Below are positions 1,275-31,193 of a stretch of DNA of 32,000 nt, piece after piece. The notes beneath the pieces are model-generated. The model had not been told where the DNA came from, searched no databases, and worked only from the letters and a program-made list of their open reading frames with translations. How positions within the stretch are numbered: the stretch's first letter is position 1; every line of letters begins with the position of its first letter. The translations under genes were made by a program, and so were the position numbers. Source of the DNA: Trichodesmium erythraeum IMS101 (GTDB lineage Bacteria; Cyanobacteriota; Cyanobacteriia; Cyanobacteriales; Microcoleaceae); assembly GCF_000014265.1 (NCBI RefSeq), contig NC_008312.1:2940001-2972000 (forward strand). The letters are read 5' to 3'.

Positions 1275-1307
1275 GAGAATAACTCCTTTGTTAGACAAAA
1301 ATAGAAT

Positions 1308-1983: not shown

Positions 1984-2307
1984 AAAATTAACAAATTCAT
2001 AACAGCCTACTACTAACTATCTTAGCCTTCGGTTTGGATACAAAAGCCTGTTAGATAAAATATTATAACATAAGGGCAAATTGTTATATAACGAGGAAAT
2101 TCCAAAGTTTACTTCTCTTTTTTTGACTTTTTTAGATAACCCTACCTCTTGGGAAAGCTTTTTCAATTATTGAAACTTTTTATGTTTATTTATCTACTTT
2201 TTATCTGGTCTATGCTTCTCAATATAGTGGTCTTTTTCTTTTTTTGAACTGTTAATTCAAGGAATGGTTTTTCATTTAATAAAGGTTATTTTATTCTATG
2301 GCGTCTA

Positions 2308-3981: not shown

Positions 3982-4013
3982 TTCACTTGAAGAGAAAAAT
4001 ATGTTCAACTACC

Positions 4014-10100: not shown

Positions 10101-10771
10101 ATACAAAAATTACGGAAGGAAAGAAAGGTGAGAAAGATATGAAATTTGAAGTCAAGTTAGACAAAAGTAGTAGTCAAATAGTGAGAGTTAATTATGAGAC
10201 TGTTGACGGCAGCGCGAAAGCAGGAAAAGATTATGAGAAGAAAAAGGGAGTCTTAAAATTCCAACCGGGAGAGACGAAAAAGACTGTAAATATTTCTATT
10301 TTGGGAGATACTGTTGATGAAAAGAATGAGAATTTTCGAATCAAACTTAGCGGTGCGAAAAATGCTAATTTGTCAGATAAAAATGCAATAGGTATGATTC
10401 GAAATAACCAGGTGCCAGAGAGTTTCAAAGATGCTGTAGATTTAGGAATTCTTTCTTCAGAACAAACTGTAGTGGTTGATGATATTGGGTTTGCAACTGG
10501 ACCTGTAAATCGTAATACGGAAGATTATTTCTGTTTTAAGGTAGAAAAAGAAGGTTTAGTGAGTATTTTTGTGGATGGTTTTATTCAGGATCTAGGAATT
10601 AAATTGTATGGTGATGATGAGAGTTTACTTAACCAGTCAAACGAGAAAGGTAATACAACTAAAGAAAAGATTAATACTATTTTAGATCCTGGTGTTTATT
10701 ATTTAAAAGTTTTCCCATTGGGAGTGGCTGCAACTGAATATAAGTTAAGGGTTAATATTGTTGATTCGTAA
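4187..10771 (+). CDS. Giant (2194 aa) multi-repeat extracellular/adhesin-like protein: conserved N-terminal module, 7-blade FG-GAP/VCBS propeller, 9 Ser/Thr-rich Ig-like repeats, 6 Calx-beta domains, C-terminal PPC (pre-peptidase C-terminal) domain
   Basis: Single uninterrupted ORF.
- N-terminal module (4187-4810): contains LLEELGHFLDS...SPGDEGELWAGLV, a module I recall at the start of other large cyanobacterial Calx-beta/FG-GAP proteins.
- FG-GAP repeats: seven copies of VEDFNGDGIPDLAVAN...DNVSVL.GKGDG(T/S)FG...NF.VG..P.SVA.
- Ig-like repeats: nine 95-aa repeats with W.DN..E.VKLELYK......I.SST...GSYSWAVPTS...G.DYQVKITS (Kre9/KNH-like Ig pattern).
- Calx-beta units: six 113-aa ISIGDAKVTEG.....F.V.L......V.V.Y.T.DGSAK.G.DY....G.L.F.PG...K...V.ILGD...E..E.F.
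- C-terminus: DYFCFKV...G.VSIFV......LGIKLYGDD........LDPGVYYLKV....V..TEYKLRV, a PPC pattern.
No N-terminal signal peptide is evident (MAEFSKDDNSYYPGEPDP). Confidence 0.9.
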   Translation: MAEFSKDDNSYYPGEPDPLFPETNYHPGTDLDPEIADPIIQCAWGEVRDQLADFILAPELEAHMEMAFGETVDSDMAKNEIQDILTGENLPDIQVLPAADMDPVVGGFDSLTGTIYLADSLWLDTCGAEDGVLEDVLLEELGHFLDSQLSESDSPGDEGELWAGLVKGEELTESEVLRLRAQDDRVEIWVWGILVEVEATQEVYFERVGDFPVGDEPKSVAVEDFNGDGIPDLAVANYSSDNVSVLSGKGDGTFGSPTNFLVGDSPSSVAVEDFNGDGIPDLAVANYSSDNVSVLPGKGDGSFGSTTNFPVGSLPRSVTVEDFNGDGISDLAVANSFSDNVSVLSGKGDGTFGSTTNFRVGNSPKSVTVEDFNGDGISDLAVANTYSDNVSVLLGKGDGTFGSTTNFPVGDDPLSVAVEDFNGDGIPDLAVANYSSYNLLVLFGKGDGSFGLPTNFQVGDGPYSVAARDFNADGIPDLAVANYWDENVSVLFGKGDGSFGSAINFQVGDGPYSVAVEDFNADGIPDLAVANYWDDNVSILINTPINITISPLSTTSLEPGKSYTLEWTDNFRDEVKLELYKDNFLQATISSSTPSDGSFSWTVPTSLTSGSNYNIKMTKVNDSSIYDYSNNFTIEPNKEVNITFPSNFTSLQTGQSYDIQWTDNIDENVKLELYKGGSFNSTISSSTESDGSYSWAVPTSVTTGSDYQVKITSISDSSLSDFSNSNFTIKPEDFITVSSPDGGNTLELGKTYRINWSDNIDENVKLELYKAGSFFGTISSSTASNGSYSWAVPTSLTSGSDYQVKITSVSDSSISDLSNSNFTIKPEDFITVSSPDGGNTLEPGKTYTINWSDNIDENVKLELYKAGSFFGTISSSTASNGSYSWAVPTSLSTGSDYQVKITSISDSSISDLSNSNFTIKPEDFITVSSPDGGNTLELGKTYTINWSDNIDENVKLELYKAGSFFGTISSSTASNGSYSWAVPTSLTSGSDYQVKITSVSDSSISDLSNSNFTIKPEDFITVSSPDGGNTLELGKTYTINWSDNIDENVKLELYKAGSFFGTISSSTASNGSYSWAVPTSVTSGSDYQVKITSISDSSISDLSNSNFTIKPEDFITVSSPDGGNTLEPGKTYTINWSDNIDENVKLELYKAGSFFGNISSSTASNGSYSWAVPTSLSTGNDYQVKITSISDSSLSDFSNSNFTIKPEDFITVSSPDGGNTLEPGKTYTINWRDNIDENVKLELYKAGSFFGNISSSTASNGSYSWAVPTSLTSGSDYQVKITSISDSSLSDLSNSNFTIKPEDFITVSSPDGGNTLKRGKNYRITWRDNIDENVKVELYKAGFLFGTISSSTESDGSYSWAVPTSLSTGNDYQVKVTSISDGSLSDFSNSNFTIKPEDLAKISIGDTKITEGNTNKAAKFKVTLDNPTTETVKVNYTTANQTAKVNQDYKLTKGTLTFRPGETNKTITVPILGDKRDEAEEKFNLNLSRPRNAKLKDAQAIGTIVDNDQPPQISIGDAKVTEGNKGKKNMEFEVKLNDPSGKTVKVSYGTVEGSAKSGKDYQKTSGVLTFKPGQRKKILNVPILGDTRDEKNENFQVKLSGAKNAKLSDKNAVGVIRDNDETVPQISIGDAKVTEGNKGKKNMEFEVELNKGSSKTVKVSYGTVDGSAKSGKDYQKTSGVLTFKPGQRKKILNVPILGDTREEKNENFQVKLSGAKNAKLSDKNAVGVIRDNDETVPQISIGDAKVTEGNKGKKNMEFEVELNKGSSKTVKVSYGTVEGSAKSGKDYQKTSGVLTFKPGQRKKILNVPILGDTRDEKNEQFQVKLSGAKNAKLSDKNAVGVIRDNDETVPQISIGDAKVTEGNKGKKNMEFEVELNKGSSKTVKVSYGTVDGSAKSGKDYQKTSGVLTFKPGQRKKILNVPILGDTRDEKNENFQVKLSGAKNAKLSDKNAVGVIRDNDEIIGKTPQISIKDTKITEGKKGEKDMKFEVKLDKSSSQIVRVNYETVDGSAKAGKDYEKKKGVLKFQPGETKKTVNISILGDTVDEKNENFRIKLSGAKNANLSDKNAIGMIRNNQVPESFKDAVDLGILSSEQTVVVDDIGFATGPVNRNTEDYFCFKVEKEGLVSIFVDGFIQDLGIKLYGDDESLLNQSNEKGNTTKEKINTILDPGVYYLKVFPLGVAATEYKLRVNIVDS
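4811..5810 (+). repeat. Intragenic 147-bp (49-aa) tandem repeat x7 encoding FG-GAP/VCBS blades
   Basis: gtagaagattttaatggagatggc recurs at 4850, 4997, 5144, 5291 and 5438, with variants at 5585 and 5732. The period is exactly 147 bp and in frame. Confidence 0.9.
5819..8374 (+). repeat. Intragenic 285-bp (95-aa) tandem repeat: 2 diverged plus 7 near-identical units (Ser/Thr-rich Ig-like domain)
   Basis: gaagacttcatcacagttagttcccccgacgg recurs at 6380, 6665 ... with an exact 285-bp period through 8374. Neighbouring units differ by only a few nucleotides. Confidence 0.9.
8390..10405 (+). repeat. Intragenic 339-bp (113-aa) tandem repeat x6 encoding Calx-beta domains (4 central units near-identical)
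   Basis: caaatatctattggggatgcgaaggtgactgag occurs at 8720, 9059, 9398 and 9737 (exact 339-bp period). Diverged units flank this block at 8390 and 10083. Confidence 0.9.
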
Positions 10772-10894
10772 TCAAATTTTTCAGTCATTAATTATCAGTA
10801 AATATTCTAATTGGATATCTCCAAAATCAGAGTTAATATTGATGTTAATATTATCGAAAAATTTGTTTAAAGCTATATAATAATGACTTAAATT

Positions 10895-12805
10895 TGAGAA
10901 TATTTAATAACCACCCGAAAGAAATAAAAATATTTATTGGTTTTACTGAGCCGGCTGTTTCAAAAATTCAGATAAGGTCTTCAAGTTTTAGCCGAAAATA
11001 CAAAATGGAAATAGCTGAAGGAGAAAAATGATTAATTACAGCAAAAGGCGATAGAAAAAAAATTAAAATTCGAGTGACTCAGGCATTAGAATATCTCAAT
11101 AACTATCCGAAAGAAATAAAAATATTTATTGGTTTTACTGAGCCGGCTGTTTCAAAAATTCAGATAAGGTCTTCAAGTTTTAGCCGAAAATACAAAATGG
11201 AAATAGCTGAAGGAGAAAAATGATTAATTACAGCAAAAGGCGATAGAAAAAAAATTAAAATTCGAGTGACTCAGGCATTAGAATATCTCAATAACTATCC
11301 GAAAGAAATAAAAATATTTATTAGTGTTACTGAGCCGGCTGTTTCAAAAATTCAGATAAAGTCTTCAAGTTTTAGCCGAAAATACAAAATGGAAATAGCT
11401 GAAGGAGAAAAATGATTAATTACAGCAAAAGGCGATAGAAAAAAAATTAAAATTCGAGTGACTCAGGCATTAGAATATCTCAATAACTATCCGAAAGAAA
11501 TAAAAATATTTATTAGTGTTACTGAGCCGGCTGTTTCAAAAATTCAGATAAGGTCTTCAAGTTTTAGCCGAAAATACAAAATGGAAATAGCTGAAGGAGA
11601 AAAATGATTAATTACAGCAAAAGGCGATAGAAAAAAAATTAAAATTCGAGTGACTCAGGCATTAAAATATCTCAATAACTATCCGAAAGAAATAAAAATA
11701 TTTATTAGTGTTACTGAGCCGGCTGTTTCAAAAATTCAGATAAAGTCTTCAAGTTTTAGCCGAAAATACAAAATGGAAATAGCTGAAGGAGAAAAATGAT
11801 TAATTACAGCAAAAGGCGATAGAAAAAAAATTAAAATTCGAGTGACTCAGGCATTAGAATATCTCAATAACTATCCGAAAGAAATAAAAATATTTATTAG
11901 TGTTACTGAGCCGGCTGTTTCAAAAATTCAGATAAAGTCTTCAAGTTTTAGCCGAAAATACAAAATGGAAATAGCTGAAGGAGAAAAATGATTAATTACA
12001 GCAAAAGGCGATAGAAAAAAAATTAAAATTCGAGTGACTCAGGCATTAGAATATCTCAATAACTATCCGAAAGAAATAAAAATATTTATTAGTGTTACTG
12101 AGCCGGCTGTTTCAAAAATTCAGATAAAGTCTTCAAGTTTTAGCCGAAAATACAAAATGGAAATAGCTGAAGGAGAAAAATGATTAATTACAGCAAAAGG
12201 CGATAGAAAAAAAATTAAAATTCGAGTGACTCAGGCATTAAAATATCTCAATAACTATCCGAAAAAAATAAAAATATTTATTAGTGTTACTGAGCCGGCT
12301 GTTTCAAAAATTCAGATAAAGTCTTCAAGTTTTAGCCGAAAATACAAAATGGAAATAGCTGAAGGAGAAAAATGATTAATTACAGCAAAAGGCGATAGAA
12401 AAAAAATTAAAATTCGAGTGACTCAGGCATTAAAATATCTCAATAACTATCCGAAAGAAATAAAAATATTTATTGGTGTTACTGAGCCGGCTGTTTCAAA
12501 AATTCAGATAAAGTCTTCAAGTTTTAGCCGAAAATACAAAATGGAAATAGCTGAAGGAGAAAAATGATTAATTACAGCAAAAGGCGATAGAAAAAAAATT
12601 AAAATTCGAGTGACTCAGGCATTAGAATATCTCAATAACTATCCGAAAGAAATAAAAATATTTATTGGTTTTACTGAGCCGGCTGTTTCAAAAATTCAGA
12701 TAAAGTCTTCAAGTTTTAGCCGAAAATACAAAATGGAAATAGCTGAAGGAGAAAAATGATTAATTACAGCAAAAGGCGATAGAAAAAAAATTAAAATCCG
12801 AGTCG
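10895..12805. repeat. 192-bp tandem repeat, about 10 units, starting about 125 nt after the giant gene's stop codon
   Basis: ccgaaagaaataaaaatattt occurs at 10915, 11107, 11299, 11491, 11683 ... (exact 192-bp period). Units are near-identical with a few variant positions (ggtttt/agtgtt/ggtgtt; aggtct/aagtct; tagaat/taaaat). The track has no ORF of 60 aa or more here. Confidence 0.97.
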
Positions 12806-17063: not shown

Positions 17064-17879
17064 TTATCCTACAAGACATTTGCGGAAAATTCCCAATTCA
17101 TCAATATTAAGGGCTTTCTGCTTCATCGTACTTGCCCTCCGAGATTTACTCTCTTCAGGTCTTACAGTCGCGACCCAGACTGACACTGCCTGTCCGGTAG
17201 CCAAAATGTTTATACTTGCGTTTAGATAACTATCATGGTGACTAGCGCTTTCAGGACAGTCCCATTGTCTAATATTTAAAGATAATTTTTCTACTATATG
17301 AATACAATTAGAGTAACGTTTAGAACTAGGAAAATATCTGTCAATTTTTATTAATGTACGACTATACCATTGAGCTTTGTATTCTAATTGCTTCACTAAT
17401 TCTCCCCAATTAGCATCACTTATTGCTATCGTACTGGGTATACAACCTAGTAGTAATTGCCTGCTCCATCTAATATATAATTGTTCTGCATACTTAGCTA
17501 AATAGACTTGACCATCTTTACATTTGAAGGCTGACTTTGTAAACGTAGCACTACCAACATTTCTTTTTTTCTTGGAATTAGGATATTTAGTATGTCCACT
17601 AAAAAGGTTATTAGAAGCCGTTTTTAAATATCTTAAGCTTTGCTGTAATACTACACTGCTTACTTCAGGGAGAAAACTTAAATATTCCGGTTTTTTCCAA
17701 GAAGTCAATATAGCTGAAGTTTGTTTATAGCTCACTCTTTCTGGGTGTTCATGCCAAGCTTGAGTTCTAGTTGCTAAAGCTTTGTTGTAGATGAGGTGTA
17801 TACAACCCAAAATCCTCAGCAACAGAATTTCCTGCTCTGGAGTTGGATAAAATCTAAATTTGTATGCTTTTTGGACCAT
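17064..17879 (-). pseudogene. tnpB: Decayed TnpB (IS200/IS605-family OrfB, RNA-guided nuclease family) with a large internal deletion
   Basis: - N-terminus MVQKAYKFRFYPTPEQEILLLR..GC...IYNKAL is the classic TnpB start.
- C-terminal ISDANWGELVKQLEYKAQWYSRTLIKIDRYFPSSKR.SNC.H matches the TnpB RuvC-II/zinc-finger region.
- Only 271 aa against about 400 expected. The segment between ..PSTIAI and SDANWGE (RuvC-I and central region) is missing.
- Zinc-finger cysteines are replaced (YSNCIH, CPESA) and HDRDxNA reads HDSYLNA. Confidence 0.8.
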
Positions 17880-23399: not shown

Positions 23400-23590
23400 A
23401 TCATTCTTTAATGTTTGTTATCGAAAAATTATCATCATCGACACTCCCTAAAAATTGGAAAACCTAAATAGAATTTCATAGCACTAGCTTCAACTAGCAA
23501 ATTAAGATAAATTTGCAAAGACTAAACAAAACAAATCTTTAGTCTAATTAGTTAGGTGTGCTGGAGGATAATCTAGGAGTGCTAAATAGA

Positions 23591-24661
23591 ATGTCAACAC
23601 TATATTCAACTGATTTTACCAAAAATAGTCAAGCAAAACTACTTCGTGTAGGGGTAATTGGGGTCGGTAATATGGGGCAGCATCATACCCGTGTCCTAAG
23701 CTTGCTCAAAGATACTGAATTAGTAGGTGTAGCAGATATCAATGTTGAAAGGGGACTAGATACTGCCAGTAAGTATGGAGTTCGTTTTTTTGAGGAGTAT
23801 CAAGAGCTTTTGCCTCATGTTGATGCTGTCTGTGTCGCTGTGCCCACTCTTCAACATTATGCTGTAGGAATGACCTGCTTAAAGGCGGGAGTTCATGTAC
23901 TAATGGAAAAACCCATCGCTGCCAGTATTGGTGAGGCGGAGTTTTTGGTTAATACTGCTGCTGAAACAAATAGAATTTTACAGGTGGGTCATATAGAAAG
24001 GTTTAATCCTGCTTTTCAAGAACTCAGTAAAGTTCTGAAAACGGAAGAATTACTGGCCTTGGAAGCTCATCGGATGAGTCCTTATTCTCATAGGGCTAAT
24101 GATGTGTCTGTAGTGTTGGACTTGATGATTCATGATATTGATTTATTACTAGAGTTGGTGGCTGCCCCAGTTGTCAAACTGACTGCTAGTGGTAGTAGTG
24201 CTTCTAGTTCGGGAAATTTAGATTACGTTACGGCTACTCTTGGCTTTGCTAATGGTATTGTGGCTACTTTAACGGCCAGTAAGGTGACACATAAAAAACT
24301 TCGTTCCATCGTTGCCCACTGTAAAAATTCTTTGACAGAGGCAGATTTTCTCAACAATGAAATTCTGATTCACCGTCAAACAACAGGAGATTATGTGACT
24401 GACTATGGTCAGGTTCTTTATCGTCAGGATGGTTTAATTGAAAGGGTTTATACTAGCAATATTGAACCTCTTCATGCAGAATTAGAGCATTTTGTTTATT
24501 GTGTAGGTGGAGGAAATAAACCTTCAGTTGGAGGAGAACAAGCTCTTAAGGCATTAAGATTAGGTAGTTTGATTGAGAAAATAGCTATTGATGATTTGGC
24601 TTACCATCCAGTAGATTCAGAATTTAATTTGTTGAATAATTCTATGCTGAAAGTGGGGTAA
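23591..24661 (+). CDS. Gfo/Idh/MocA-family NAD(P)-dependent oxidoreductase
   Basis: Rossmann start RVGVIGVGNMGQHHTRVL, the EKP motif (VLMEKPIA) and GHIERFNP. The track start is GTG 23558; the first ATG (23591, AGGAG 11 nt upstream) is preferred. Confidence 0.85.
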   Translation: MSTLYSTDFTKNSQAKLLRVGVIGVGNMGQHHTRVLSLLKDTELVGVADINVERGLDTASKYGVRFFEEYQELLPHVDAVCVAVPTLQHYAVGMTCLKAGVHVLMEKPIAASIGEAEFLVNTAAETNRILQVGHIERFNPAFQELSKVLKTEELLALEAHRMSPYSHRANDVSVVLDLMIHDIDLLLELVAAPVVKLTASGSSASSSGNLDYVTATLGFANGIVATLTASKVTHKKLRSIVAHCKNSLTEADFLNNEILIHRQTTGDYVTDYGQVLYRQDGLIERVYTSNIEPLHAELEHFVYCVGGGNKPSVGGEQALKALRLGSLIEKIAIDDLAYHPVDSEFNLLNNSMLKVG

Positions 24662-25490
24662 AATATTTTGATAATTCTACTAGGAATTTTTGCTAATAAA
24701 TATTATACTAAATCTCAAAAGTATTGCTATGTATTTTTGAGGTTAGGATGGAATATTGTATCCAACAATTATTTGGGTATTAGGGTTTTACCGAATAATA
24801 TATTCTCGCTAAATTTCTATAATTGTTAAAGGTATTACTGAACTTTACTTATTACTTAATAGCTGAAGTTTTGGTCAATTTTCCTATTATTTTTGGGAAT
24901 TAGTATGATTTTTGGCTGATTTTTTTATATATTACTCCGCCTATATTGATAGATTTAGGCGGATTTTTATGCAAGGAAAGTAACCTTGTTAGTTTAAATA
25001 GCTCCTAATACCAAGTGTGATAAATATTTGCTACAAATGACTAGGAAATTTATGAGGAATTAGGAATTAGAATTAATGGTTTCAATACCTAATACCATTT
25101 TTTAATTTTCAGGTGAGAAATTATCTGTTTTTGCCAAAGAAAAATTTCCTGTAAAGTATTTCATTTAATATGAAATGACTATAGCAGTTCTTTCATCTAT
25201 GAGGTACAGTTTTAGATACCCCTGCTCTCCTTTTTAAGCTATCCCTGATCGGGAACTACTGATACCCTTTTCTTTTCTGGTAGTGACATGGGGACATAGC
25301 CTTAAGCCCGACTTTAGATAGGAACAGGTGGAAGAGCGATCGCTATTTTCACATAGGGAAAAAAATATCTTGGGAAAAACCTATGTTTAAATACATTTAC
25401 TATTGAGAAATATTCAATTTATAGTAAATTTGTAACTTCTTTCTTTTGTCAAGTTTGACATTAAAAAATATTTTTATAAACCATAGCTAA

Positions 25491-25522
25491 AAAAGAGAGG
25501 CTTAAAAGCAGCCTCTCTTTTT
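25491..25522. terminator. Bidirectional rho-independent terminator
   Basis: aaaaaGAGAGGCT-taaaagc-AGCCTCTCtttttt has an A-run upstream and a T-run downstream. It lies about 150 nt downstream of the MIF-like gene (minus strand). Confidence 0.7.
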
Positions 25523-25670
25523 TAGGGAGAAAACAGGGAATCATAAACGCACCTCATAACTGGGGGAATTGCTATATAAGTATTAAAATTCTTTAATAAA
25601 TTACTTTTGACTTATGACTTTTTAGTTGCCCGTAGCCTTATAATTTCCTCAAAAAAATCAGGAAAAGTTA

Positions 25671-26024
25671 TCAAAAAGTTGAACTATTCCAACCCCAAAG
25701 ATAACCTTGAGCATCAGAAAATTCTATATAGATTCGATTTTTAGGAACCCCGAGAGTTTTATTAATTTGTTCACAAAAATCTTGACTCATTTCTTTGGTT
25801 TGGTTAGGCTTCATACTACCAATACTTTTAATTTCTATGTAGCAAGTCGGCTCATCACTATTTCCACCAAAAGTCATGGGAATATCAGATTCAAAGGCTG
25901 TCATTACGTAAGATTCTGATTTACTAAAATGCTTGGCCATACTAGATGAAAGTTGTTTGAGAAGGTTGTCAATTTTATCTTTTTCTAGTTGGGCAACGGA
26001 AGTTTTGACTTTGATTAATGGCAT
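25671..26024 (-). CDS. MIF / tautomerase-superfamily protein (macrophage migration inhibitory factor-like), 117 aa
   Basis: Start moved to M19 of the track ORF so that the product begins MPLIKVKTS (catalytic Pro-1). It aligns by eye with MIF: ..MTFGG.S.P.CYIEIKSIG......N...S...C..I...LG.P..RIYI.F.D.....WGWN.STF. Confidence 0.8.
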   Translation of the reverse strand: MPLIKVKTSVAQLEKDKIDNLLKQLSSSMAKHFSKSESYVMTAFESDIPMTFGGNSDEPTCYIEIKSIGSMKPNQTKEMSQDFCEQINKTLGVPKNRIYIEFSDAQGYLWGWNSSTF

Positions 26025-26150
26025 AGTTCGATTAATAGTTGAGGATGAACAAAATAAACTATTTACGTAGGTCTTCAATTATAAAAGTTAACTAATCAAT
26101 TGTCTATAATAGACCTAAAGAAAGGAAGGGAAAACACATAGAAAAAATAT

Positions 26151-26789
26151 ATGAATATCAAACGGGCATTGAAAAGTATAACTAAGGGAGTTTCGACCTT
26201 TGCTGGACCTCTGGGGGCTCCTTTTGAAGCATTGCTATATTTCGTTGAGGATAAACAAACACAAGAGCGTGAGGCTCAACTAGATGCAATGATCTTTGAG
26301 GTACAAAGTTTGAACCGTGAAACTCTTGAGGAGATATTTCAAGCTAGAGAGGAAATTAAGGAATTGAGGGCACAATTTATTTTGGCAATGGAAATTTGTT
26401 TTTCTATTTTAGCTGAAAACAGGAAATTGTTGTTTAGTCCAGATTTAGAACAAAATCTTCCTTTTTTTATTGAACCATATAAGGAACGGTTGGAAGCAAG
26501 TGGGTTGATTACTAATGATGTTTTGGCTGATGCACTTTATCATTGTTATGAAAAAGATGCTCGACTTTTTTTAGCACATATTTCTGCTGATTTTCCTGTG
26601 GGAGAACTTCGTAGTTATGAGGCTTTACCTGTTATTATTTCTGATTTTTTAACAAGATTTTCTGGTCAGGGATTAAATCAACAAGCTAAAATATTTAAGA
26701 CTTTAAGTAAGAAAAATCCAGGTAGTAGACCTTTAAGGGTAAAAAGCTTGATGCTTCAAGAACAAGTGATTAATCAAATAGGGAAGTGA
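26151..26789 (+). CDS. Hypothetical 212-aa protein: hydrophobic/amphipathic N-terminus, coiled-coil, C-terminal adaptor-like helical module shared with the next gene
   Basis: ORF 10 nt upstream of the next gene.
- N-terminus: KGVSTFAGPLGAPFEALLYFV
- Coiled-coil-like: QEREAQLDAMIFEVQSLNRETLEEIFQAREEIKELRAQ
- C-terminus: YEKDARLFLAHISADFPVGELRSYEALPVIISDFLTRFSGQGLNQQAKIFKTLSKKNPG, which parallels residues ~35-97 of the 1204-aa protein. Confidence 0.7.
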   Translation: MNIKRALKSITKGVSTFAGPLGAPFEALLYFVEDKQTQEREAQLDAMIFEVQSLNRETLEEIFQAREEIKELRAQFILAMEICFSILAENRKLLFSPDLEQNLPFFIEPYKERLEASGLITNDVLADALYHCYEKDARLFLAHISADFPVGELRSYEALPVIISDFLTRFSGQGLNQQAKIFKTLSKKNPGSRPLRVKSLMLQEQVINQIGK

Positions 26790-26799
26790 GAAAATATTT

Positions 26800-29700
26800 A
26801 TGCCTAGTGAGTTTGAAAAGGTTCTAGACGAGATTAGAAAACGAAGTAGTAAATATGAAGATATTGGAGATGTTAAGAGGGAAATTATTAATGCGCTTTC
26901 ACAAAGATATAAAACACAGGAACGTTTGTTTACACATTATGTTCTAGAAAAAGGGGGATTTGATATTCGTAAATTAACTTTAAGTGACCCTCTGCTAGTA
27001 ATTATATCTGATTTTTTTAATCAGTGTAATGGTCTAAACAAAAACGAATTATATAAATTTTTTAGAGTGTTATATGATGAAAATAAAGGTATTAGTTTGC
27101 TAAAAGAAATTAGAGATACACTTGTACAATTTAAACATCAAAGTACTGATACTCCTACATATACACCATCACCATACATATCAGTTATTACTTCAGAAGC
27201 AATAGGCTTAGTAGAAGCAAAATATGGACAGTCTCTAGAACAGGGAAAAAACTTTGCTAAAAAAGTTGATTGTAATAATTTTCAGGATGTACAAGCTTTT
27301 TTTAATAATGGGGGACAAGCTGGTAAACAGCTTGCTATTTTGGAGCCAGGAACCTATTACATTAACCCCGAAATATTCACTATTCGTACAGTTCCTATTA
27401 TTAGGATTCTTCAAGGAGAAATAGGACTGGTAATAGCCAATGAGGGGACTTTTAAGTCTGATGAACAAACGTTAGGTAGAGTGGTGGAATGTGATAACTT
27501 TCAGGATGCTGAAGCATTTCTGAAAAATGGAGGACAAAAAGGTAAGCAACTTGCTATTTTGACTGACGGTGACTATAAAATTAACACTGATTTCTTTAGC
27601 GTAATTACTACTACTAATGCCTATAAATATAATGAAAATCCAAATAATTTAAAGGTTTATAAAATCGACAAAGATAAAATTGGTATTTTAACTACGATGG
27701 TTGGGAAAATTCTCCCTAAAGGTGAAATTGCTGGACCAATAATTGAAGGACACGATAATTATCAAAATGCACAAAAATTCCTAGATTTAGGAGGATATAA
27801 AGGATTGCAAGAAGAAGTTCTCCAAGAAGGAGCCTGGAGTCTAAATCCTTGGTTTGTTGAAGTTGAGCAGGTACCACTAACTAGAATTGAGCAAGAAGAG
27901 GTGGGAGTTGTTATATCTTTTGTTGGAAAAGAATATGACAAAAATTATGATCAACAGCCCATTTTTTATGGTGCAGAAAAGTCTCTATACCAATTAGTTC
28001 CAAAAGGGTACAAAGGAGTTCAAAAAGAACCTCTTACTGCTGGTCAATATGCAATTAATACCAGAGTAAAAACGGTCAAATTAGTGCCAACTACCCAAAT
28101 TATACTGAATTGGTCAGATCAGAAAAAACATCCCTTAAATTATGACTATGAACTGAAACAAATGAAGCTAATTTCTAGAGACCATTTTGAAATTTTTGTT
28201 CAGTTTACCCAAATTATTCGTATTGCTGCTGAGAATGCTCCTAAGATGATTTGTATGGTTGGATATTATACAGGGGAAGACAAAATATATGTTACTGATG
28301 ATTCTGGGCAAGTTGTTAAGAAATATGCAGTTATTAGAAATTTAGTTTCTCGTGTATTAACAAAAGTTGTTTATAGTCATTTTCAACAAGCTGCTACTGG
28401 TAAAACGGCAATACAGTTTCTAAACACAAGAGGTGACTCTCAAAAGGAGGCCGAAAATTATATAAAAACACTTCTTGAAATGATTGGTGTTGAAGGATGT
28501 GGCACTTTTATGGTTGATACAGTTAATCTACCTCTAGTAGTTGATTCTTACTTACAAGAGAAACAAAAGCAAGAGGCAAGAGAAGCTCAAGCAAAAGCTG
28601 CACCTGAACGGCTTCTTGAACCTGAATTTGTTGAGAATCCTGAACAACGGCTTCCTGAACCTGAATTTGTTGAGAATCCTGAAAACCGTTGTCCCATTAT
28701 CCTCCTACTGGATACATCTTACTCAATGTCAGGAGAAGCTATTACTGAATTAAATCAAGGAGTGAAAATATTTCAGGCAAGTGTAAAGGAAGATGAACTG
28801 GCTTCCTTAAGAGTAGAAATAGCTGTCATTACTTTTAACAGTGAAATTGAAGTAGTTCAAGATTTTGTTACTGTAGATAAATTTATTCCCAAAACATTAG
28901 AAGCATCAGGAGTAACGCACATGGGAAAAGCTATTGAAAAAGCCCTAGAATTATTAGAAAAGCGAAAACAAGACTACAAAAATAGCGATATTCAATACTA
29001 TCGACCCTGGATCTTTCTAATTACTGATGGGCAACCTACTGATACTTGGCAAGATGCAGCAAAAAAAATAGAAGAAGCTGAAACTAATAGAAAATTACTT
29101 TTTTTTGCTGTTGGGGTAAGAGATGCAGATATGGAGACATTAAGTGAAATTTCTGTATGCCCTCCTAAAAAACTCAACGGCTTAGATTTTCAATCTTTGT
29201 TTAAATGGCTAAGTTTTTCACTTCAGCAAGTTTCAGTTAGCAAGATAGGAGAAAAGAATAGACTTCCTCCAACGAATGCATGGGAAGAAATAACTAGTAA
29301 AAATCAAAATACTAAACAGACTCAACAAACTCAACAAAAGACAACAATTCCTAATTCTGACCCTAATCCTGAACCAATTATCCCTATCTTAGTTTTAGAT
29401 AGAGATATTTTTAAAGATCAACGAATTAAGAGTAATTCGGAGGGAGAAATTTGGATAACTCAAAAATATCGCTACCGAAAGAAATACCTAATAAAAATTT
29501 ATTATGAAGTTACACCAGCAAGGATAAAAAAGTTAGAAGTAATGGTAGCTTATAAACCGAAAAATTTTCATGGTTCTCAACAAGCGTGGGCTTGGCCTGA
29601 GTATTTACTAGCAGATAAAACAGGAAAAATTATCGGCTTTGTCATGGAATTTATTGAAGATAGTAAACTGCTATTTAATATTTATAATCCTCAGCGTCGT

Positions 29701-30414
29701 AAGCAAATAAATAGTCAACTCCACTGGTCAGTAGACTGGCTTTTTCTTCACCATACTGCTAAAAATATTGCTACTATTATTCAGTCTCTTCATAGTCAGG
29801 ATTATGTTATTGGAGATATGAAGCCACAAAATATTCTAGTTAACCGATATGCTTCTGCTTCAATAATTAATACAGACTCATTTCAAGTTCGCCATCCTCA
29901 GACAAAAGAAATCTATCATTGTTTAGTTGGTTCCGAAGAATTTACCCCTCCTGAACTATTAGAAAAAGAATTAGCAAAAATTGTTCAAACTCCTACCCAT
30001 GATAACTTTAGATTAGCCCTTATTATCTATCATTTATTATTTGGAGGACATCCCTTTAAAGGAAGGTGGATAGGAACAGAAGAGCCACCCAAAATTGATG
30101 AACTCATCCGACTAGGTTTCTGGTGCTATGCTCCCAATAGTAAAATTCTACCAGGACCGAGAACTATTCCCCTTGAAATAGTTCACCCCAAAATTCAAAA
30201 ATGCTTCCAAAAATGCTTCAACGATGGACACTATCATCCAGAAAAACGACCCACTCCTCAGAACTGGGTTGACGCTTTAGAGAGTGCCATTAATGATTTA
30301 GTACAGTGTAAAAGAGTTGATACCCATTGGTATAGTAAAACTTATGGCAAATGCTATTGGTGCGAAAGAGAAGAAAAATTAGAGGTTGACATATTTTCTG
30401 ATTCCAAAACATAA
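26800..30414 (+). CDS. 1204-aa multidomain protein: N-terminal adaptor-like module, repeat-expanded SPFH/band-7-like region, TerY-type vWA domain, Ser/Thr protein kinase (YegI-like) with C-terminal Cys/His knuckle
   Basis: - 26800-27129: helical module homologous to the C-terminus of the upstream ORF.
- 27265-27990: three repeats of (V/I)(D/E)C.NFQD..AF..NGG..GKQ..IL..G.Y.IN...F.
- about 27860-28554: SPFH-like core (EQEEVGVVISFVGKE; LTAGQYAINTRVKTVKLVP; ISRDHFEIFVQFTQIIRI; IRNLVSRVLTKVVYSHF..A.GKTAIQFLNTR; IKTLLEMIGVEGCGTFMVDTVNLP).
- 28690-29250: vWA with MIDAS DTSYSMSG (D638), ITDGQPTD and FKWLSFSL, as in TerY.
- 29400-30300: kinase with YLIKIY (Lys), VIGDMKPQNILV (D1006/K1008/N1011), NTDSFQV (D1026) and EFTPPEL.
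- Tail: C..(5)..H..(9)..CYWC. Confidence 0.85.
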   Translation: MPSEFEKVLDEIRKRSSKYEDIGDVKREIINALSQRYKTQERLFTHYVLEKGGFDIRKLTLSDPLLVIISDFFNQCNGLNKNELYKFFRVLYDENKGISLLKEIRDTLVQFKHQSTDTPTYTPSPYISVITSEAIGLVEAKYGQSLEQGKNFAKKVDCNNFQDVQAFFNNGGQAGKQLAILEPGTYYINPEIFTIRTVPIIRILQGEIGLVIANEGTFKSDEQTLGRVVECDNFQDAEAFLKNGGQKGKQLAILTDGDYKINTDFFSVITTTNAYKYNENPNNLKVYKIDKDKIGILTTMVGKILPKGEIAGPIIEGHDNYQNAQKFLDLGGYKGLQEEVLQEGAWSLNPWFVEVEQVPLTRIEQEEVGVVISFVGKEYDKNYDQQPIFYGAEKSLYQLVPKGYKGVQKEPLTAGQYAINTRVKTVKLVPTTQIILNWSDQKKHPLNYDYELKQMKLISRDHFEIFVQFTQIIRIAAENAPKMICMVGYYTGEDKIYVTDDSGQVVKKYAVIRNLVSRVLTKVVYSHFQQAATGKTAIQFLNTRGDSQKEAENYIKTLLEMIGVEGCGTFMVDTVNLPLVVDSYLQEKQKQEAREAQAKAAPERLLEPEFVENPEQRLPEPEFVENPENRCPIILLLDTSYSMSGEAITELNQGVKIFQASVKEDELASLRVEIAVITFNSEIEVVQDFVTVDKFIPKTLEASGVTHMGKAIEKALELLEKRKQDYKNSDIQYYRPWIFLITDGQPTDTWQDAAKKIEEAETNRKLLFFAVGVRDADMETLSEISVCPPKKLNGLDFQSLFKWLSFSLQQVSVSKIGEKNRLPPTNAWEEITSKNQNTKQTQQTQQKTTIPNSDPNPEPIIPILVLDRDIFKDQRIKSNSEGEIWITQKYRYRKKYLIKIYYEVTPARIKKLEVMVAYKPKNFHGSQQAWAWPEYLLADKTGKIIGFVMEFIEDSKLLFNIYNPQRRKQINSQLHWSVDWLFLHHTAKNIATIIQSLHSQDYVIGDMKPQNILVNRYASASIINTDSFQVRHPQTKEIYHCLVGSEEFTPPELLEKELAKIVQTPTHDNFRLALIIYHLLFGGHPFKGRWIGTEEPPKIDELIRLGFWCYAPNSKILPGPRTIPLEIVHPKIQKCFQKCFNDGHYHPEKRPTPQNWVDALESAINDLVQCKRVDTHWYSKTYGKCYWCEREEKLEVDIFSDSKT

Positions 30415-30429
30415 CATTCCCTTGAAAAA

Positions 30430-30837
30430 TTGCTTCAAAATAAAAAGTGGAAAGAAGCTGATTTAGAAACTAAATATATTATGCTAAAGTTTGCAGGAAG
30501 AATTGATCAAGGATGGTTAGATAAATCATCCCTAGAAAATTTCCCGACTAAAGTTATTCTTCAAATAGATCAACTTTGGCGACAATATTCTGATGAACGT
30601 TTTGGCTTTGCTACACAGAAGCGTATCTATTTAGAAACTGGTAATAAATTAGAACAAATAAATTGGGAAACCTATAATCATTTTGGTGAAAAAGTTGGTT
30701 GGCGAGAAGGGGGAATGTGGAAAAATTACTTCGATCTAGAATTTTCTCTGAATTCACCAGAAGGTCATCTTCCATTCTGTTGTGCTGGTTTTAATGTTTG
30801 CTTCATTGCTCATCTAGCCCTTCTGAAAGACTTATGA
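30430..30837 (+). CDS. GUN4-like porphyrin-binding domain ORF, in the same frame as the kinase ORF and separated from it by one TAA; no ATG at the domain start (possible detached or pseudogenised C-terminal domain)
   Basis: KKWKEADLETKYIMLKFAGRIDQGWLDKSSLENFP..VILQIDQLWRQYSDERFGFATQKRIYLETG......W..F...VGWREGGMWKNYFDLEFSLNSPEGHLPF is the GUN4 domain pattern. The track start is TTG, and the first ATG (residue 18) would truncate the domain. 30430-26800 = 3630, which is divisible by 3. Confidence 0.6.
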   Translation: MLQNKKWKEADLETKYIMLKFAGRIDQGWLDKSSLENFPTKVILQIDQLWRQYSDERFGFATQKRIYLETGNKLEQINWETYNHFGEKVGWREGGMWKNYFDLEFSLNSPEGHLPFCCAGFNVCFIAHLALLKDL

Positions 30838-31193
30838 TCATCTACATGAATCTTTGATTTTCTCTAAATAATCAGTTCTATTCCTGCTTCACCTCGGCAA
30901 CCTCAGCGTTCTCTCAAAATCTATAATTTTCTATATAAACTTTCAATTATAGTTATCGTAGTGGAAAATCTTCATATCTTAGGAAGAATATCATATCCGA
31001 ATCATCAGTGATCAAAAAGTTTTTGTTTGTAGTAAAGCGATCGCCTTATTCGCCGTAAGTGCTAATTCTCTCCTCCTGCTTTCTGCCTCCCGCCTTACCT
31101 CCTCCAAAGTGTAAGTATTGAACCTAGAGAGCGAATGCCATGTAGAGGGCGAATGCTAGAAAACCCCCACTAGATATGGGGTTTGTGTGTAAG

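What the first reader, a model, noticed from the sequence alone, without database searches (positions are those of the whole stretch)
26151..30837. Candidate undescribed signalling/conflict operon: adaptor-tailed small protein, then adaptor/SPFH/TerY-vWA/kinase giant, then in-frame GUN4-like tail
Three co-directional ORFs are packed with 10-nt and 15-nt gaps. The 212-aa product has a hydrophobic N-terminus and a coiled coil. It ends in a helical module that recurs at the N-terminus of the 1204-aa product. The large protein concatenates modules that normally occur as separate proteins: an SPFH/band-7-like scaffold domain, a TerY-type vWA domain with intact MIDAS, and a YegI-like Ser/Thr kinase.

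The logic is a large sensor/scaffold carrying a homotypic adaptor that could recruit a small partner. This resembles the death-fold / effector-associated-domain coupling described for conflict systems in multicellular bacteria, including cyanobacteria. I do not recognise this particular combination as a named system. A membrane-active effector role for the small protein is pure speculation, based on its hydrophobic N-terminal segment.
Basis: partly seen in the sequence, partly recalled or inferred. Interest (0 to 1): 0.85.

Follow-up and report, generated by a model that had tools for sequence, protein, structure and literature searches.

The report
Adaptor-coupled SPFH–vWA–kinase–GUN4 fusion operon
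A Trichodesmium-type cyanobacterium has welded four or five genes that are separate in its relatives (adaptor, SPFH scaffold, TerY-type vWA, YegI-type kinase, GUN4) into one giant protein that shares an unclassified six-helix docking module with the small protein encoded just upstream, which places the locus among the apoptosis-like "effector-associated domain" conflict systems of multicellular bacteria, although this copy shows signs of erosion.

Summary

New findings:
1. The shared module is a rare family absent from Pfam. It has about 50 representative proteins and is always terminal. AlphaFold2 predicts a six-helix bundle (pLDDT 92). Elsewhere it is fused to TRADD-N+CHAT+GUN4, GUN4, STAND-PPR, and bDLD1+PNPase.
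2. In all 12 genomes I could inspect (Trichodesmium, Okeania, Hyella), an ORF1-like gene is directly followed by a gene that starts with the module, typically 10 nt downstream.
3. ORF2 is a lineage-specific chimera of genes that are separate in Okeania and other cyanobacteria: adaptor–GUN4, TM-SPFH(–vWA), TerY vWA, and kinase. PP2C has been lost.
4. ORF3 is not an independent gene. A sister lineage reads TAC (Tyr) where the window has TAA, so GUN4 was the C-terminal domain of ORF2.
5. The window copy also lacks the SPFH membrane anchor and coiled coil, has a degraded kinase G-loop and an Asp→Asn change, and evolves under relaxed constraint (dN/dS 0.5–1.2, against 0.11–0.14 for a neighbouring gene).

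Verdict: a new variant of the known EAD-coupled conflict-system class. No function has been demonstrated.

The parts
26151..26789 (+). ORF1, 212 aa. The constant small partner. Conserved N-terminal motif K-A-L-S-x-x-A-G-P-L-G-x-P (res 1-26), long helix (res 23-89), C-terminal six-helix adaptor (res about 108-211).
   Evidence: ORF1-like proteins form about 12 representative clusters of 203-236 aa.
26472..26786 (+). Adaptor module, C1-type copy (ORF1 res about 108-212).
   Evidence: profile E 1e-31. AF2 pLDDT about 90.
26790..26799 (+). 10-nt spacer between ORF1 and ORF2. The same 10-nt spacing is seen in Okeania SIO3I5, Okeania SIO3B5, a TARA Trichodesmium and Hyella patelloides.
26800..30414 (+). 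ORF2, 1204 aa. Chimera of adaptor, SPFH repeats and core, TerY-type vWA, and YegI-type kinase with zinc ribbon.
26800..27129 (+). Adaptor module, N-type copy (ORF2 res 1-110). 61% identical to the N-terminus of the Okeania adaptor-GUN4 protein.
   Evidence: (AF2 pLDDT 91.6, six helices)
27163..27222 (+). Fusion joint 1: ...TPSPYIS | VITSEAIGLVEAK... The linker of an adaptor-GUN4 gene is joined to the middle of the SPFH beta-repeat region. Homology with the sister-lineage adaptor-GUN4 gene ends at 27183.
27184..27885 (+). Three SPFH-associated beta-rich repeat units (res 129-362). Relatives have six to seven units plus an N-terminal TM anchor.
27886..28602 (+). SPFH/Band_7 core (res 363-600) with only about 16 residues of the coiled coil that follows it in relatives.
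28607..28683 (+). 39-bp x2 tandem duplication (LLEPEFVENPEQR / LPEPEFVENPENR) at fusion joint 2, SPFH to TerY vWA.
28696..29166 (+). TerY/YegL-type vWA domain. MIDAS D638, S640, S642, T706, D743.
29428..30306 (+). YegI-type Ser/Thr kinase domain. K899 and D1006 are kept. The G-loop is degraded (KSNSEGE). N1024 replaces the Asp that Okeania, YegI and the sister lineage have.
30307..30363 (+). C-x5-H-x8-C-x2-C zinc ribbon, typical of TerY-P kinases.
   Evidence: PMC11090510
30412..30414 (+). TAA stop. It is TAC (Tyr) in the sister lineage L030, so this is a nonsense mutation that cuts off the GUN4 domain.
30415..30837 (+). GUN4 domain (called as ORF3 from TTG 30430), formerly the C-terminal domain of ORF2.

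Best explanation
The locus is a Trichodesmium-specific, fused version of a cyanobacterial adaptor-coupled signalling/conflict cassette.

Shown:
- ORF1 belongs to a conserved family of about 210-aa proteins whose C-terminal six-helix module is always followed by a gene that begins with a paralogous copy of the module.
- That downstream gene varies: GUN4; TRADD-N-CHAT-GUN4; STAND NTPase-PPR; and here SPFH-vWA-kinase(-GUN4).
- The components of ORF2 are separate, neighbouring genes in Okeania and in another cyanobacterium. In that genome the order is EAD8-GUN4, SPFH-vWA, TerY vWA, PP2C, kinase, inside an iSTAND/MoxR island.

Inferred mechanism:
- The two module copies bind each other in a heterotypic, CARD-like manner. 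This tethers the small constant partner, with its conserved G/P-rich N-terminal motif and long helix, to the large protein.
- In the large protein the TerY-type vWA (metal-dependent ligand capture through MIDAS) and the YegI-type kinase form a phosphorylation switch. The SPFH part provides scaffolding. GUN4 binds a tetrapyrrole, either as a read-out of photosynthetic state or as a photo-oxidative effector.
- By analogy with the EAD systems, the output would be a regulated stress, abortive-infection or cell-death decision.

State of the window's copy: it is remodelled and probably weakened. It has no SPFH anchor or coiled coil and no PP2C reset phosphatase. Its G-loop is degraded and it carries an Asp-to-Asn change in the kinase. 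GUN4 is severed by a nonsense codon.
For: Module family and partners:
- An exhaustive profile search finds 50 representative proteins, with the module always at an end.
- Pfam on the partners gives TRADD-like_N+CHAT+GUN4 (P0149, Okeania SIO3B5), CHAT+GUN4 (P0151), GUN4 (P0148/150/155), nSTAND3+PPR (P0164, Hyella), bDLD1+PNP_UDP_1 (P0167) and a cytidylyltransferase (P0187).

Adjacency: every ORF carrying an ORF1-type module is directly followed by an ORF carrying an N-type module in 12 genomes. None occurs in 60 TerY-P-only loci.

Rosetta-stone evidence:
- ORF2 1-117 is 61% identical to the Okeania adaptor-GUN4 N-terminus.
- The vWA is 57% identical to the stand-alone Okeania vWA221.
- The kinase is 44% identical to the stand-alone kin365.
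- Locus L090 has the order EAD8-GUN4, SPFH-vWA, vWA, PP2C, STK, then EAD8-trypsin/-WD40/-iSTAND and MoxR.
- Microcystis has GUN4 followed by SPFH and DUF4407.

Structure: AF2 predicts a six-helix bundle, pLDDT 91.6.

GUN4 fusion: L030 reads through with TAC.

Framing: the EAD principle, and GUN4, CHAT and TRADD-N as components of such systems, come from PMC7159879 and PMC8195603. TerY-P as a phospho-switch and defence module comes from PMC11090510.
Against: - No experiment or complex prediction shows that the two modules bind.
- The module matches no Pfam EAD or Death family and is unrelated to EAD8 by hhalign.
- The Foldseek match to CARD is not significant.
- Adjacent copies are not each other's closest relatives: 24% identity within the pair against 41% between ORF1-type copies of Trichodesmium and Hyella. 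This departs from the published EAD pattern.
- No PADLOC system model matches beyond generic kinase hits.
- Within Trichodesmium the genes evolve nearly neutrally: ORF2 5' half dN/dS 0.68, p=0.26 against neutrality; ORF1 0.59-1.23.
- Several Okeania loci are visibly decayed.
- The window's kinase may be inactive.
Confidence: 0.6

Rival explanations
1. Eroding relic. The fused ORF2 is a by-product of deletions in a dispensable, decaying locus of a pseudogene-rich genome and no longer does anything. The intact reading frame is a transient state.
For: Features lost relative to relatives:
- TM anchor, most beta-repeats and almost all of the SPFH coiled coil.
- PP2C (against 82).
- G-loop glycines and an Asp (N1024) that the sister lineage L030 still has.
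- GUN4, cut off by TAC-to-TAA.

dN/dS is 0.5-1.2, against 0.11-0.14 for the flanking gene, and neutrality is not rejected for ORF1 or the 5' half of ORF2.

The Okeania loci show frameshifts, fragments and IS605/TnpB insertions. The TARA Trichodesmium SPFH gene carries an internal deletion.
Against: - At least four independent joints are all in frame, giving a 1204-aa ORF (about 1345 aa before the nonsense mutation). Chance alone makes this unlikely, roughly 1 in 81 if the joints were independent.
- The same fusion is kept in lineages that differ by 3-11% (L022, L030).
- The kinase shows weak but nominally significant purifying selection (dN/dS 0.55, p=0.048).
- MIDAS, the catalytic Asp and Lys, and the zinc ribbon are intact.
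- The L022 'frameshift' lies in an A6 homopolymer and may be a sequencing error.
Confidence: 0.25
2. Housekeeping physiology rather than conflict. The conserved GUN4-protein plus giant-SPFH pair is a membrane-microdomain or tetrapyrrole-homeostasis module, for example scaffolding chlorophyll-biosynthetic or quality-control complexes. The vWA and kinase act as its regulator and the adaptor simply assembles the complex.
For: - GUN4 followed by SPFH is conserved from Microcystis to Okeania in ordinary chromosomal surroundings.
- The Okeania locus is syntenic between glycogen-metabolism genes.
- The window locus sits among housekeeping genes (proB-like, oxidoreductase, MIF, flavin reductase).
- From established knowledge, GUN4 regulates Mg-chelatase and SPFH proteins scaffold membrane proteases. 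Both roles are cited in PMC7159879.
Against: - The module and the GUN4 genes are fused to TRADD-N, CHAT caspase-like peptidases, STAND NTPases and bDLD1-PNPase.
- In L090 the cassette lies inside an iSTAND/MoxR island with caspases and four EAD8 effectors.
- The distribution is patchy, decay is frequent, constraint is relaxed, and the Hyella pair sits in a mobile-element context with an integrase, KfrA and a transposase.
Confidence: 0.13
3. Assembly or annotation artefact. The chimera arises from mis-joined repeats in a metagenome assembly.
For: The locus contains repeated sequence: two adaptor copies in sister lineages and SPFH repeats.
Against: The identical 1204-aa product is called on 23 contigs read from independent NCBI, ENA and Logan assemblies (the index lists it in 26 blocks), one block with a contig above 1 Mb. 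The same joints are present in diverged contigs L022 and L030.
Confidence: 0.02

Closest known systems
Effector-associated-domain (EAD) coupled conflict systems of multicellular bacteria (Kaur, Burroughs, Iyer, Aravind 2020, PMC7159879; 2021, PMC8195603)
   Same: - A small, terminal, all-alpha, non-enzymatic domain is present on two proteins encoded by adjacent genes.
- The partner domains are the typical ones: CHAT/caspase, TRADD-N, GUN4, STAND NTPase, PNPase, bDLD1, Ser/Thr kinase and vWA.
- The hosts are filamentous or colonial cyanobacteria.
- The module is positionally equivalent to EAD8 in the EAD8-GUN4 then SPFH-vWA cassette of L090.
   Different: - The module matches none of the Pfam EAD, bDLD or NNH families at significance and is unrelated to EAD8 by profile-profile comparison.
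- There is no MoxR, STAND or GTPase core in the window.
- The core here is SPFH plus a TerY-type vWA and kinase, which those papers do not describe.
- Adjacent copies are old paralogous subtypes, not each other's closest relatives.
EACC1 two-gene system (same 2020 paper, 'System 4')
   Same: - The 5' gene encodes a small constant component with a conserved hydrophobic segment rich in small residues, sometimes fused to an EAD.
- The 3' gene is variable and often caspase-containing. In Okeania SIO3B5 the 3' gene is adaptor-TRADD-N-CHAT-GUN4.
   Different: - There is no sequence match of ORF1-like proteins to any Pfam family, including at relaxed thresholds.
- The ORF1 N-terminus is not a confident TM helix.
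- EACC1 is mainly actinobacterial.
TerY-P triad (E. coli YegL vWA / PphC PP2C / YegI kinase; Anantharaman et al. 2012 as cited in PMC11090510)
   Same: - The vWA is 49% identical to YegL with a perfect MIDAS motif.
- The kinase is 31% identical to YegI with the same C-terminal zinc ribbon.
- Most cyanobacterial homologues of the kinase have the vWA 1-2.5 kb upstream, and in L069/L090 a PP2C lies between them.
   Different: - The vWA and kinase are fused in one polypeptide.
- The PP2C phosphatase is absent from the window.
- The pair is embedded between an SPFH domain and a GUN4 domain.
- The kinase G-loop is degraded.
Death-fold adaptors (CARD/DD/DED; bacterial bDLD1-5)
   Same: - A predicted six-helix bundle of about 95 residues.
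- Paired on two proteins that would be brought together.
- One family member (P0167) also carries bDLD1.
- The best-TM Foldseek hits are Apaf-1 CARD.
   Different: - Structural similarity is not significant (E > 1, TM 0.43-0.54).
- Only one of 37 members gives a weak Death_3 hit (E 0.017).
SPFH/Band-7 scaffolds (HflK/C, flotillin, YqiK)
   Same: - Band_7 domain above the Pfam threshold.
- Relatives have an N-terminal TM anchor and a long C-terminal coiled coil, like canonical SPFH proteins.
   Different: - The cyanobacterial family has 3-7 extra beta-rich repeat units and variable C-terminal vWA or DUF4407.
- The window protein has lost the anchor and nearly all of the coiled coil.
Cyanobacterial Ser/Thr kinase-GUN4 fusions (one PADLOC PD-T4-6 model, PDLC04062, has this architecture)
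   Same: The kinase is followed by GUN4 in one polypeptide, uninterrupted in L030. ORF3 matches positions 317-424 of that model at E 6e-33.
   Different: - The kinase here is of the YegI/TerY-P type and matches PD-T4-6 models only weakly (E 2.6e-8 at best, partial).
- In the window the GUN4 domain is severed by a stop codon.

Membership tests
Effector-associated domains (EAD class, Kaur et al. 2020) | Small domain without enzymatic features | tested here: met
   About 95 residues, six helices, no catalytic motifs.
Effector-associated domains (EAD class, Kaur et al. 2020) | Located at the N- or C-terminus of the proteins that carry it | tested here: met
   Terminal in nearly all of the 50 profile hits. 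The only non-terminal copies are a tandem-module protein and P0155/P0191.
Effector-associated domains (EAD class, Kaur et al. 2020) | A second copy on a protein encoded by the adjacent gene | tested here: met
   Seen in 12 genomes, always adjacent and typically 10 nt apart.
Effector-associated domains (EAD class, Kaur et al. 2020) | Fused to the effector and signalling domains typical of these systems | tested here: met
   CHAT, TRADD-like_N, GUN4, nSTAND3, PNP_UDP_1+bDLD1 and kinase/vWA.
Effector-associated domains (EAD class, Kaur et al. 2020) | Adjacent copies are closer to each other than to other copies | tested here: not met
   ORF1-C against ORF2-N is 24% identical. ORF1-C against Hyella ORF1-like-C is 41%.
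Named EAD/bDLD/NNH sequence families (Pfam PF19955-PF19964, PF20689 and following, PF22734) | Significant match to the family profile | tested here: not met
   No hit above threshold in 37 module sequences or 17 ORF1-like proteins. Only stray weak hits: NNH2 in 2/37 (7e-4), Death_3 in 1/37 (0.017), EAD1 in 1/17 (0.078). hhalign against EAD8 gives probability 0.2%.
Death-fold superfamily | Six-helix bundle with significant structural similarity to DD/DED/CARD/PYD | tested here: inconclusive
   Six helices at pLDDT 91.6. Foldseek against PDB has no hit with E <= 0.001. Apaf-1 CARD gives TM 0.43-0.54 and probability <= 0.30.
TerY-P triad | TerY/YegL-like vWA with complete MIDAS (DxSxS...T...D) | tested here: met
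   49% identical to YegL. D638, S640, S642, T706 and D743 are present.
TerY-P triad | YegI-like Ser/Thr kinase with C-terminal zinc ribbon | tested here: met
   31% identical to YegI. C1170, H1176, C1185 and C1188 are invariant in the alignment.
TerY-P triad | PP2C phosphatase gene in the operon | tested here: not met
   No PP2C among the window ORFs. It is present in L069/L090 between the vWA and the kinase.
Catalytically competent Hanks-type kinase | Gly-rich loop, VAIK Lys, catalytic-loop Asp, Mg-binding Asp | tested here: inconclusive
   K899 and D1006 are kept and DSF 1026-1028 is invariant. The G-loop is KSNSEGE, against GRGGEA in Okeania and GKGGEG in YegI. N1024 replaces the Asp found in Okeania, YegI and L030.
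SPFH/Band-7 membrane scaffolds | Band_7 domain | tested here: met
   PF01145 at E 9.4e-10, 39.3 bits against a 23.6-bit cutoff.
SPFH/Band-7 membrane scaffolds | Membrane anchor and long C-terminal coiled coil used for oligomeric assembly | tested here: not met
   No hydrophobic segment in ORF2 (KD19 maximum 1.35). Only about 16 coiled-coil residues (586-601) remain, against more than 150 in the Okeania and Microcystis relatives, which also have an N-terminal hydrophobic TM-like segment (read from the sequences).
GUN4 | GUN4 domain profile match | tested here: met
   PF05419 at E 1e-33, profile positions 14-125 of 141. Porphyrin binding is not testable here.
Known anti-phage defence systems (PADLOC 2.0) | Match to a system-specific protein model beyond a generic domain | tested here: not met
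   Only partial kinase-domain hits (PD-T4-6, mad6, MkoA, PglW) and a GUN4 hit to one PD-T4-6 model. Nothing for ORF1, SPFH or vWA.

The most novel reading that the evidence does not exclude
A previously unclassified six-helix adaptor family, used as an ancient heterotypic pair (a C-type on a constant about 210-aa partner, an N-type on a variable partner), defines a cyanobacterial two-gene system. It also plugs a widespread 'EAD-GUN4 + giant SPFH(-vWA) + TerY-P' cassette into the apoptosis-like conflict network. The Trichodesmium fusion is natural Rosetta-stone evidence that the SPFH scaffold, the vWA/kinase switch and the tetrapyrrole-binding GUN4 act in one complex. That complex might couple infection or stress sensing to photo-oxidative cell death in a bloom-forming diazotroph.
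Probability: 0.3. Interest if true: 0.75.

Novelty: new variant of a known kind. Interest (0 to 1): 0.6.

Why it matters
- It adds a new adaptor family and a new kind of core (SPFH scaffold plus TerY-type vWA/kinase plus GUN4) to the bacterial apoptosis-like conflict systems. Until now these have been defined around MoxR-vWA, STAND and GTPase cores.
- The fusion protein gives a direct, testable prediction of which separately encoded proteins work together in Okeania, Microcystis and other cyanobacteria.
- From my own knowledge, not tested here: Trichodesmium blooms collapse by a caspase-like programmed cell death whose genetic basis is poorly defined. A GUN4-linked, adaptor-coupled kinase/caspase network is a plausible candidate to examine.
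- The locus also records how multi-gene systems are welded together and then eroded: in-frame deletions, a 39-bp junction duplication and a single nonsense mutation.

Tried and rejected
- PADLOC and NCBIfam gave no system-level assignment, only generic kinase, vWA and GUN4 hits.
- Foldseek of the adaptor model against PDB gave no significant hit, so Death-fold membership is left open.
- hhalign of the module against EAD8 found no relationship.
- Pfam at relaxed thresholds, on 37 modules and 17 ORF1-like proteins, found no recurrent family. EACC1 and EAD1 membership is rejected at this sensitivity.
- A TM anchor in ORF1 is rejected as a confident call (KD19 1.23; AF2 pLDDT < 50 for residues 1-26).
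- An independent ORF3 gene is rejected in favour of a severed domain.
- The promoter and terminator scans were uninformative. Promoter-like sites are not above the shuffled expectation. The only terminator-like hairpin after the operon is at 31165-31181.
- The genome-contig scan with the module found only Okeania and Trichodesmium.
- Cluster look-ups gave no organism names for most remote family members, so the taxonomic range beyond Trichodesmium, Okeania and Hyella is unknown.
- Literature searches for SPFH+vWA+GUN4 or SPFH in defence systems found no prior description.
- An assembly artefact is rejected.

Full report
**1. The observation**

The three ORFs are exactly as described.
- ORF1 is 26151-26789 (212 aa).
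- ORF2 is 26800-30414 (1204 aa).
- ORF3 is 30430-30837 (135 aa, TTG start).
- The gaps are 10 nt and 15 nt. ORF3 lies in the frame of ORF2, behind a single TAA.

Pfam supports every domain call.
- ORF2: Band_7 at 363-600, VWA at 633-789, Pkinase at 945-1155.
- ORF3: GUN4, E 1e-33.
- ORF1: no match in Pfam, NCBIfam or PADLOC.

The 'TerY-type' and 'YegI-like' labels were tested directly against E. coli K-12.
- The vWA is 49% identical to YegL, with the MIDAS residues D638, S640, S642, T706 and D743 in place.
- The kinase is 31% identical to YegI and shares its C...H...CxxC zinc ribbon at residues 1170-1188.

The recurrence of a helical module is real. ORF1 125-191 aligns with ORF2 29-97 at 32% identity, E 1e-7.

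The protein is not an assembly artefact. The identical 1204-aa product is encoded on 23 contigs read from independent assemblies, and the index lists it in 26 blocks. The source is a Trichodesmium-clade genome. The closest named relatives are Trichodesmium MAGs, and hetR lies 5 kb downstream.

**2. The shared module is a distinct, rare adaptor family**

A ten-sequence alignment gave a confident AlphaFold2 model: pLDDT 91.6 with six helices. Foldseek against the PDB found nothing significant. The best-superposing hits are Apaf-1 CARD (TM 0.43-0.54, E > 1), so a Death-fold relationship is only a lead.

An exhaustive HMMER search of 1.84 billion representative proteins with the module profile found just 50 proteins. 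In almost all of them the module sits at one end. Pfam on the partners shows the following fusions.
- TRADD-like_N + CHAT + GUN4 (P0149, Okeania SIO3B5).
- CHAT + GUN4 (P0151).
- GUN4 alone (P0148, P0150, P0155).
- A STAND-type NTPase with PPR repeats (P0164, Hyella patelloides).
- bDLD1 + purine-nucleoside-phosphorylase fold + module (P0167).
- A cytidylyltransferase (P0187).

These are the signature partners of the effector-associated domains (EADs) described for conflict systems of multicellular bacteria (PMC7159879, PMC8195603).

The module itself belongs to none of the named families.
- No Pfam family is hit recurrently by 37 module sequences or 17 ORF1-like proteins, even at E <= 5.
- Profile-profile comparison with EAD8 gives probability 0.2%.

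**3. The two genes are neighbours wherever they occur**

ORF1-like proteins are 203-236 aa. They have a conserved N-terminal motif (...KALSxxAGPLGxPxE...YDD..EERE), a long helix and the module at the C-terminus. They form about a dozen representative clusters.

A profile scan of all fetched loci covered 12 genomes: three Trichodesmium lineages, eight Okeania and Hyella. In each one, the ORF carrying the ORF1-type module is directly followed by an ORF that begins with the module.

The 10-nt spacing is the same in the window, Okeania SIO3I5, Okeania SIO3B5, a TARA Trichodesmium and Hyella.

The downstream partner varies:
- adaptor-GUN4;
- adaptor-TRADD-N-CHAT-GUN4;
- adaptor-STAND-PPR;
- in the window, adaptor-SPFH-vWA-kinase.

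The small protein is therefore the constant component and the large one the variable component.

Unlike the published EAD generalisation, the two copies in a pair are not each other's closest relatives. Identity is 24% within the pair, against 41% between the ORF1-type copies of Trichodesmium and Hyella. This points to an old heterotypic pair.

ORF1 has no confident transmembrane segment. The Kyte-Doolittle maximum is 1.23, and AF2 pLDDT is below 50 for residues 1-26.

**4. ORF2 is a lineage-specific chimera of neighbouring genes**

None of the 120 best homologues of ORF2 has the adaptor or the kinase. They are cyanobacterial SPFH proteins, many ending in a vWA domain.

In Okeania KiyG1 the pieces are separate consecutive genes:
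- vWA, 221 aa;
- kinase, 365 aa;
- ORF1-like, 210 aa;
- adaptor-GUN4, 316 aa;
- an SPFH fragment;
- SPFH-vWA, 1077 aa.

In Okeania SIO3I5 the order is ORF1-like, adaptor-GUN4 (331 aa), then a TM-anchored SPFH (942 aa).

ORF2 matches these pieces as follows.
- Residues 1-117 are 61% identical to the N-terminus of the adaptor-GUN4 protein.
- The vWA is closer to the stand-alone vWA (57%) than to the SPFH-attached one (44.5%).
- The kinase is 44% identical to the stand-alone kinase.

The first joint is at residue 128/129 (...TPSPYIS|VITSEAIGLVEAK...). Here the linker of an adaptor-GUN4 gene runs into the middle of the SPFH repeat region. The SPFH-to-vWA joint carries a 39-bp tandem duplication.

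Sister Trichodesmium contigs show an intermediate state: ORF1, adaptor-GUN4 (325 aa), TM-SPFH, a transposase fragment, then a second copy of [ORF1 3' end + adaptor]. In another contig that second copy continues into the same adaptor-SPFH fusion as in the window, at 96.7% nt identity. The window arrangement is what recombination between the two direct repeats would leave.

A further cyanobacterial contig (L069/L090) has the following gene order, inside an island with caspases, a STAND NTPase, four EAD8-tagged proteins (trypsin, WD40, iSTAND, one unknown) and a MoxR-type AAA+:
- EAD8-GUN4;
- SPFH-vWA;
- TerY vWA;
- PP2C;
- kinase.

Here EAD8 occupies the position that the new module occupies in Okeania and Trichodesmium. 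The order SPFH, vWA, kinase is the order of the domains in ORF2.

Microcystis keeps a GUN4 gene, an SPFH gene and a DUF4407 gene in a row.

Most other cyanobacterial homologues of the kinase have the vWA 1-2.5 kb upstream, which is a standard TerY-P arrangement (PMC11090510).

**5. ORF3 is a severed domain**

A marine metagenome contig (L030) carries a kinase that is 89% identical. It reads straight through...FSDSKTYHSLEKLLQDKKWKEADLE... The only difference at the junction is TAC (Tyr) where the window has TAA. GUN4 was therefore the C-terminal domain of ORF2, giving about 1345 aa in all.

The same comparison shows two further window-specific changes in the kinase.
- The G-loop is SNSEGE, against SSGEGE in L030, GRGGEA in Okeania and GKGGEG in YegI.
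- N1024 replaces an Asp conserved in L030, Okeania and YegI.

The catalytic-loop Asp (D1006), the VAIK Lys (K899) and the invariant DSF motif remain.

**6. Selection**

| Comparison | dN/dS | Note |
|---|---|---|
| ORF2 5' half vs L022 | 0.68 | not different from neutral, p=0.26 |
| ORF1 vs two lineages | 0.59-1.23 | |
| Kinase vs L030 | 0.55 | p=0.048 against neutrality |
| GUN4 vs L030 | 0.52 | |
| Flanking oxidoreductase gene | 0.11-0.14 | Fisher p 1e-4 to 4e-3 against the locus genes |

This fits either fast-evolving conflict genes or relaxed constraint.

Synonymous divergence in the locus (0.02-0.10 for ORF1, the ORF2 5' half and the kinase; 0.18 for the GUN4 part) is lower than in the flanking gene (0.21-0.24). 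I cannot explain this. Recent exchange between lineages is one possibility.

**7. What it most likely is and does**

Shown:
- a conserved two-gene arrangement in which a constant small protein and a variable large protein each carry one copy of a six-helix module;
- recurrent fusion of that module to caspase-like, TRADD-N, STAND, PNPase and GUN4 domains;
- fusion in Trichodesmium of components that are adjacent genes elsewhere.

Inferred:
- The two copies bind each other and assemble the complex.
- The TerY-type vWA and kinase act as a metal- or ligand-dependent phospho-switch.
- SPFH scaffolds the assembly.
- GUN4 links it to tetrapyrrole status or acts as a photo-oxidative effector.
- The output is a regulated stress, abortive-infection or cell-death decision, as proposed for EAD systems.

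I put this at about 0.6.

The main rival, at about 0.25, is that the window's copy is an eroding relic. It has lost the SPFH anchor, most repeats and the coiled coil. It has lost PP2C. It has a degraded kinase and a severed GUN4, and related Okeania loci are visibly decaying. Against this rival, at least four in-frame joints are preserved in lineages 3-11% apart.

A housekeeping role for the GUN4-SPFH pair, in tetrapyrrole or membrane homeostasis, is possible at about 0.13. It fits poorly with the caspase, TRADD-N, STAND and EAD8 company.

**8. Comparison with what is known, and novelty**

The logic is that of the EAD-coupled conflict systems. The nearest formal analogue is the EACC1 two-gene system: a small constant 5' component and a variable, often caspase-bearing, 3' component.

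Membership in any named EAD, bDLD, NNH or EACC1 family was tested and not met. Death-fold membership is inconclusive.

The vWA and kinase meet the TerY-P criteria except for the missing PP2C.

An SPFH-centred core with GUN4 and TerY-P is not described in the two defining papers. Further full-text searches did not find it either.

I therefore rate it a new variant of a known kind.

Interest is moderate to high. It offers a new adaptor family, a new core and a natural fusion that predicts a complex. This is tempered by the lack of any functional evidence and by the signs of decay in this particular copy.

Noticed in passing
window 2306-3983: 98-bp tandem repeat, 17 copies at 96% identity, non-coding. 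Each unit contains GCGATCGC (HIP1-like palindrome).
   Followed up: no
window 1307-1985: Degenerate heptamer array (TAGGTTT)n with higher-order periods of 37-127 bp. Strong GC skew (+0.57) and AT skew.
   Followed up: no
window 10897-12803: 192-bp tandem repeat, 9.9 copies at 98% identity, in a region with no ORF of 100 aa or more. GC is about 28-30%.
   Followed up: no
window 4187-10771: 2194-aa ORF with FG-GAP, nine Kre9_KNH Ig-like and six Calx-beta domains, built from 147-, 285- and 339-bp internal DNA repeats. Its GC content (42-46%) stands out from the roughly 31% around it.
   Followed up: partly
window 17064-17879 (-): 270-aa TnpB-like ORF. Pfam hits cover only the N-terminal HTH_OrfB_IS605 and the Cas12f1-like TNB domain, so it is probably a truncated IS605-family element. 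Similar elements flank the Okeania loci.
   Followed up: no
window 28607-28683: 39-bp x2 tandem duplication inside ORF2, exactly at the SPFH-to-vWA fusion joint. It duplicates the peptide (L)EPEFVENPE(Q/N)R.
   Followed up: partly
window 23558-26789 compared with L018 and L020: Synonymous divergence of ORF1 between Trichodesmium lineages (dS 0.02-0.05) is four- to ten-fold lower than that of the flanking GFO/IDH/MocA oxidoreductase gene (0.21-0.24). This hints at recent exchange of the locus between lineages.
   Followed up: partly
L090 1-23351 (NNBT01000030.1): A large conflict island. It contains CHAT, caspase-STAND, caspase-EAD8, EAD8-GUN4, SPFH-vWA, a TerY-P triad, EAD8-trypsin, EAD8-unknown, EAD8-WD40, EAD8-iSTAND and a MoxR-type AAA+.
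   Followed up: partly
L027-L029 (Microcystis), about 4285-10830: Conserved row of a 159-aa coiled-coil-like protein, a GUN4 protein, an optional 507-aa SPFH-repeat protein, an 849-aa SPFH and DUF4407. The GUN4 ORF begins with a TRADD-N-like remnant, ASSPEDEARLRLDQEDR.
   Followed up: partly
L024 1-12234 (Hyella patelloides): The ORF1-like/adaptor-STAND-PPR pair sits beside a GIY-YIG/NTPase gene, KfrA_N, a tyrosine integrase and a transposase, which suggests a mobile-element context.
   Followed up: no
L001 18823-19728: hetR (Peptidase_S48 + HetR_C) lies about 5 kb downstream of the locus in the source genome.
   Followed up: no
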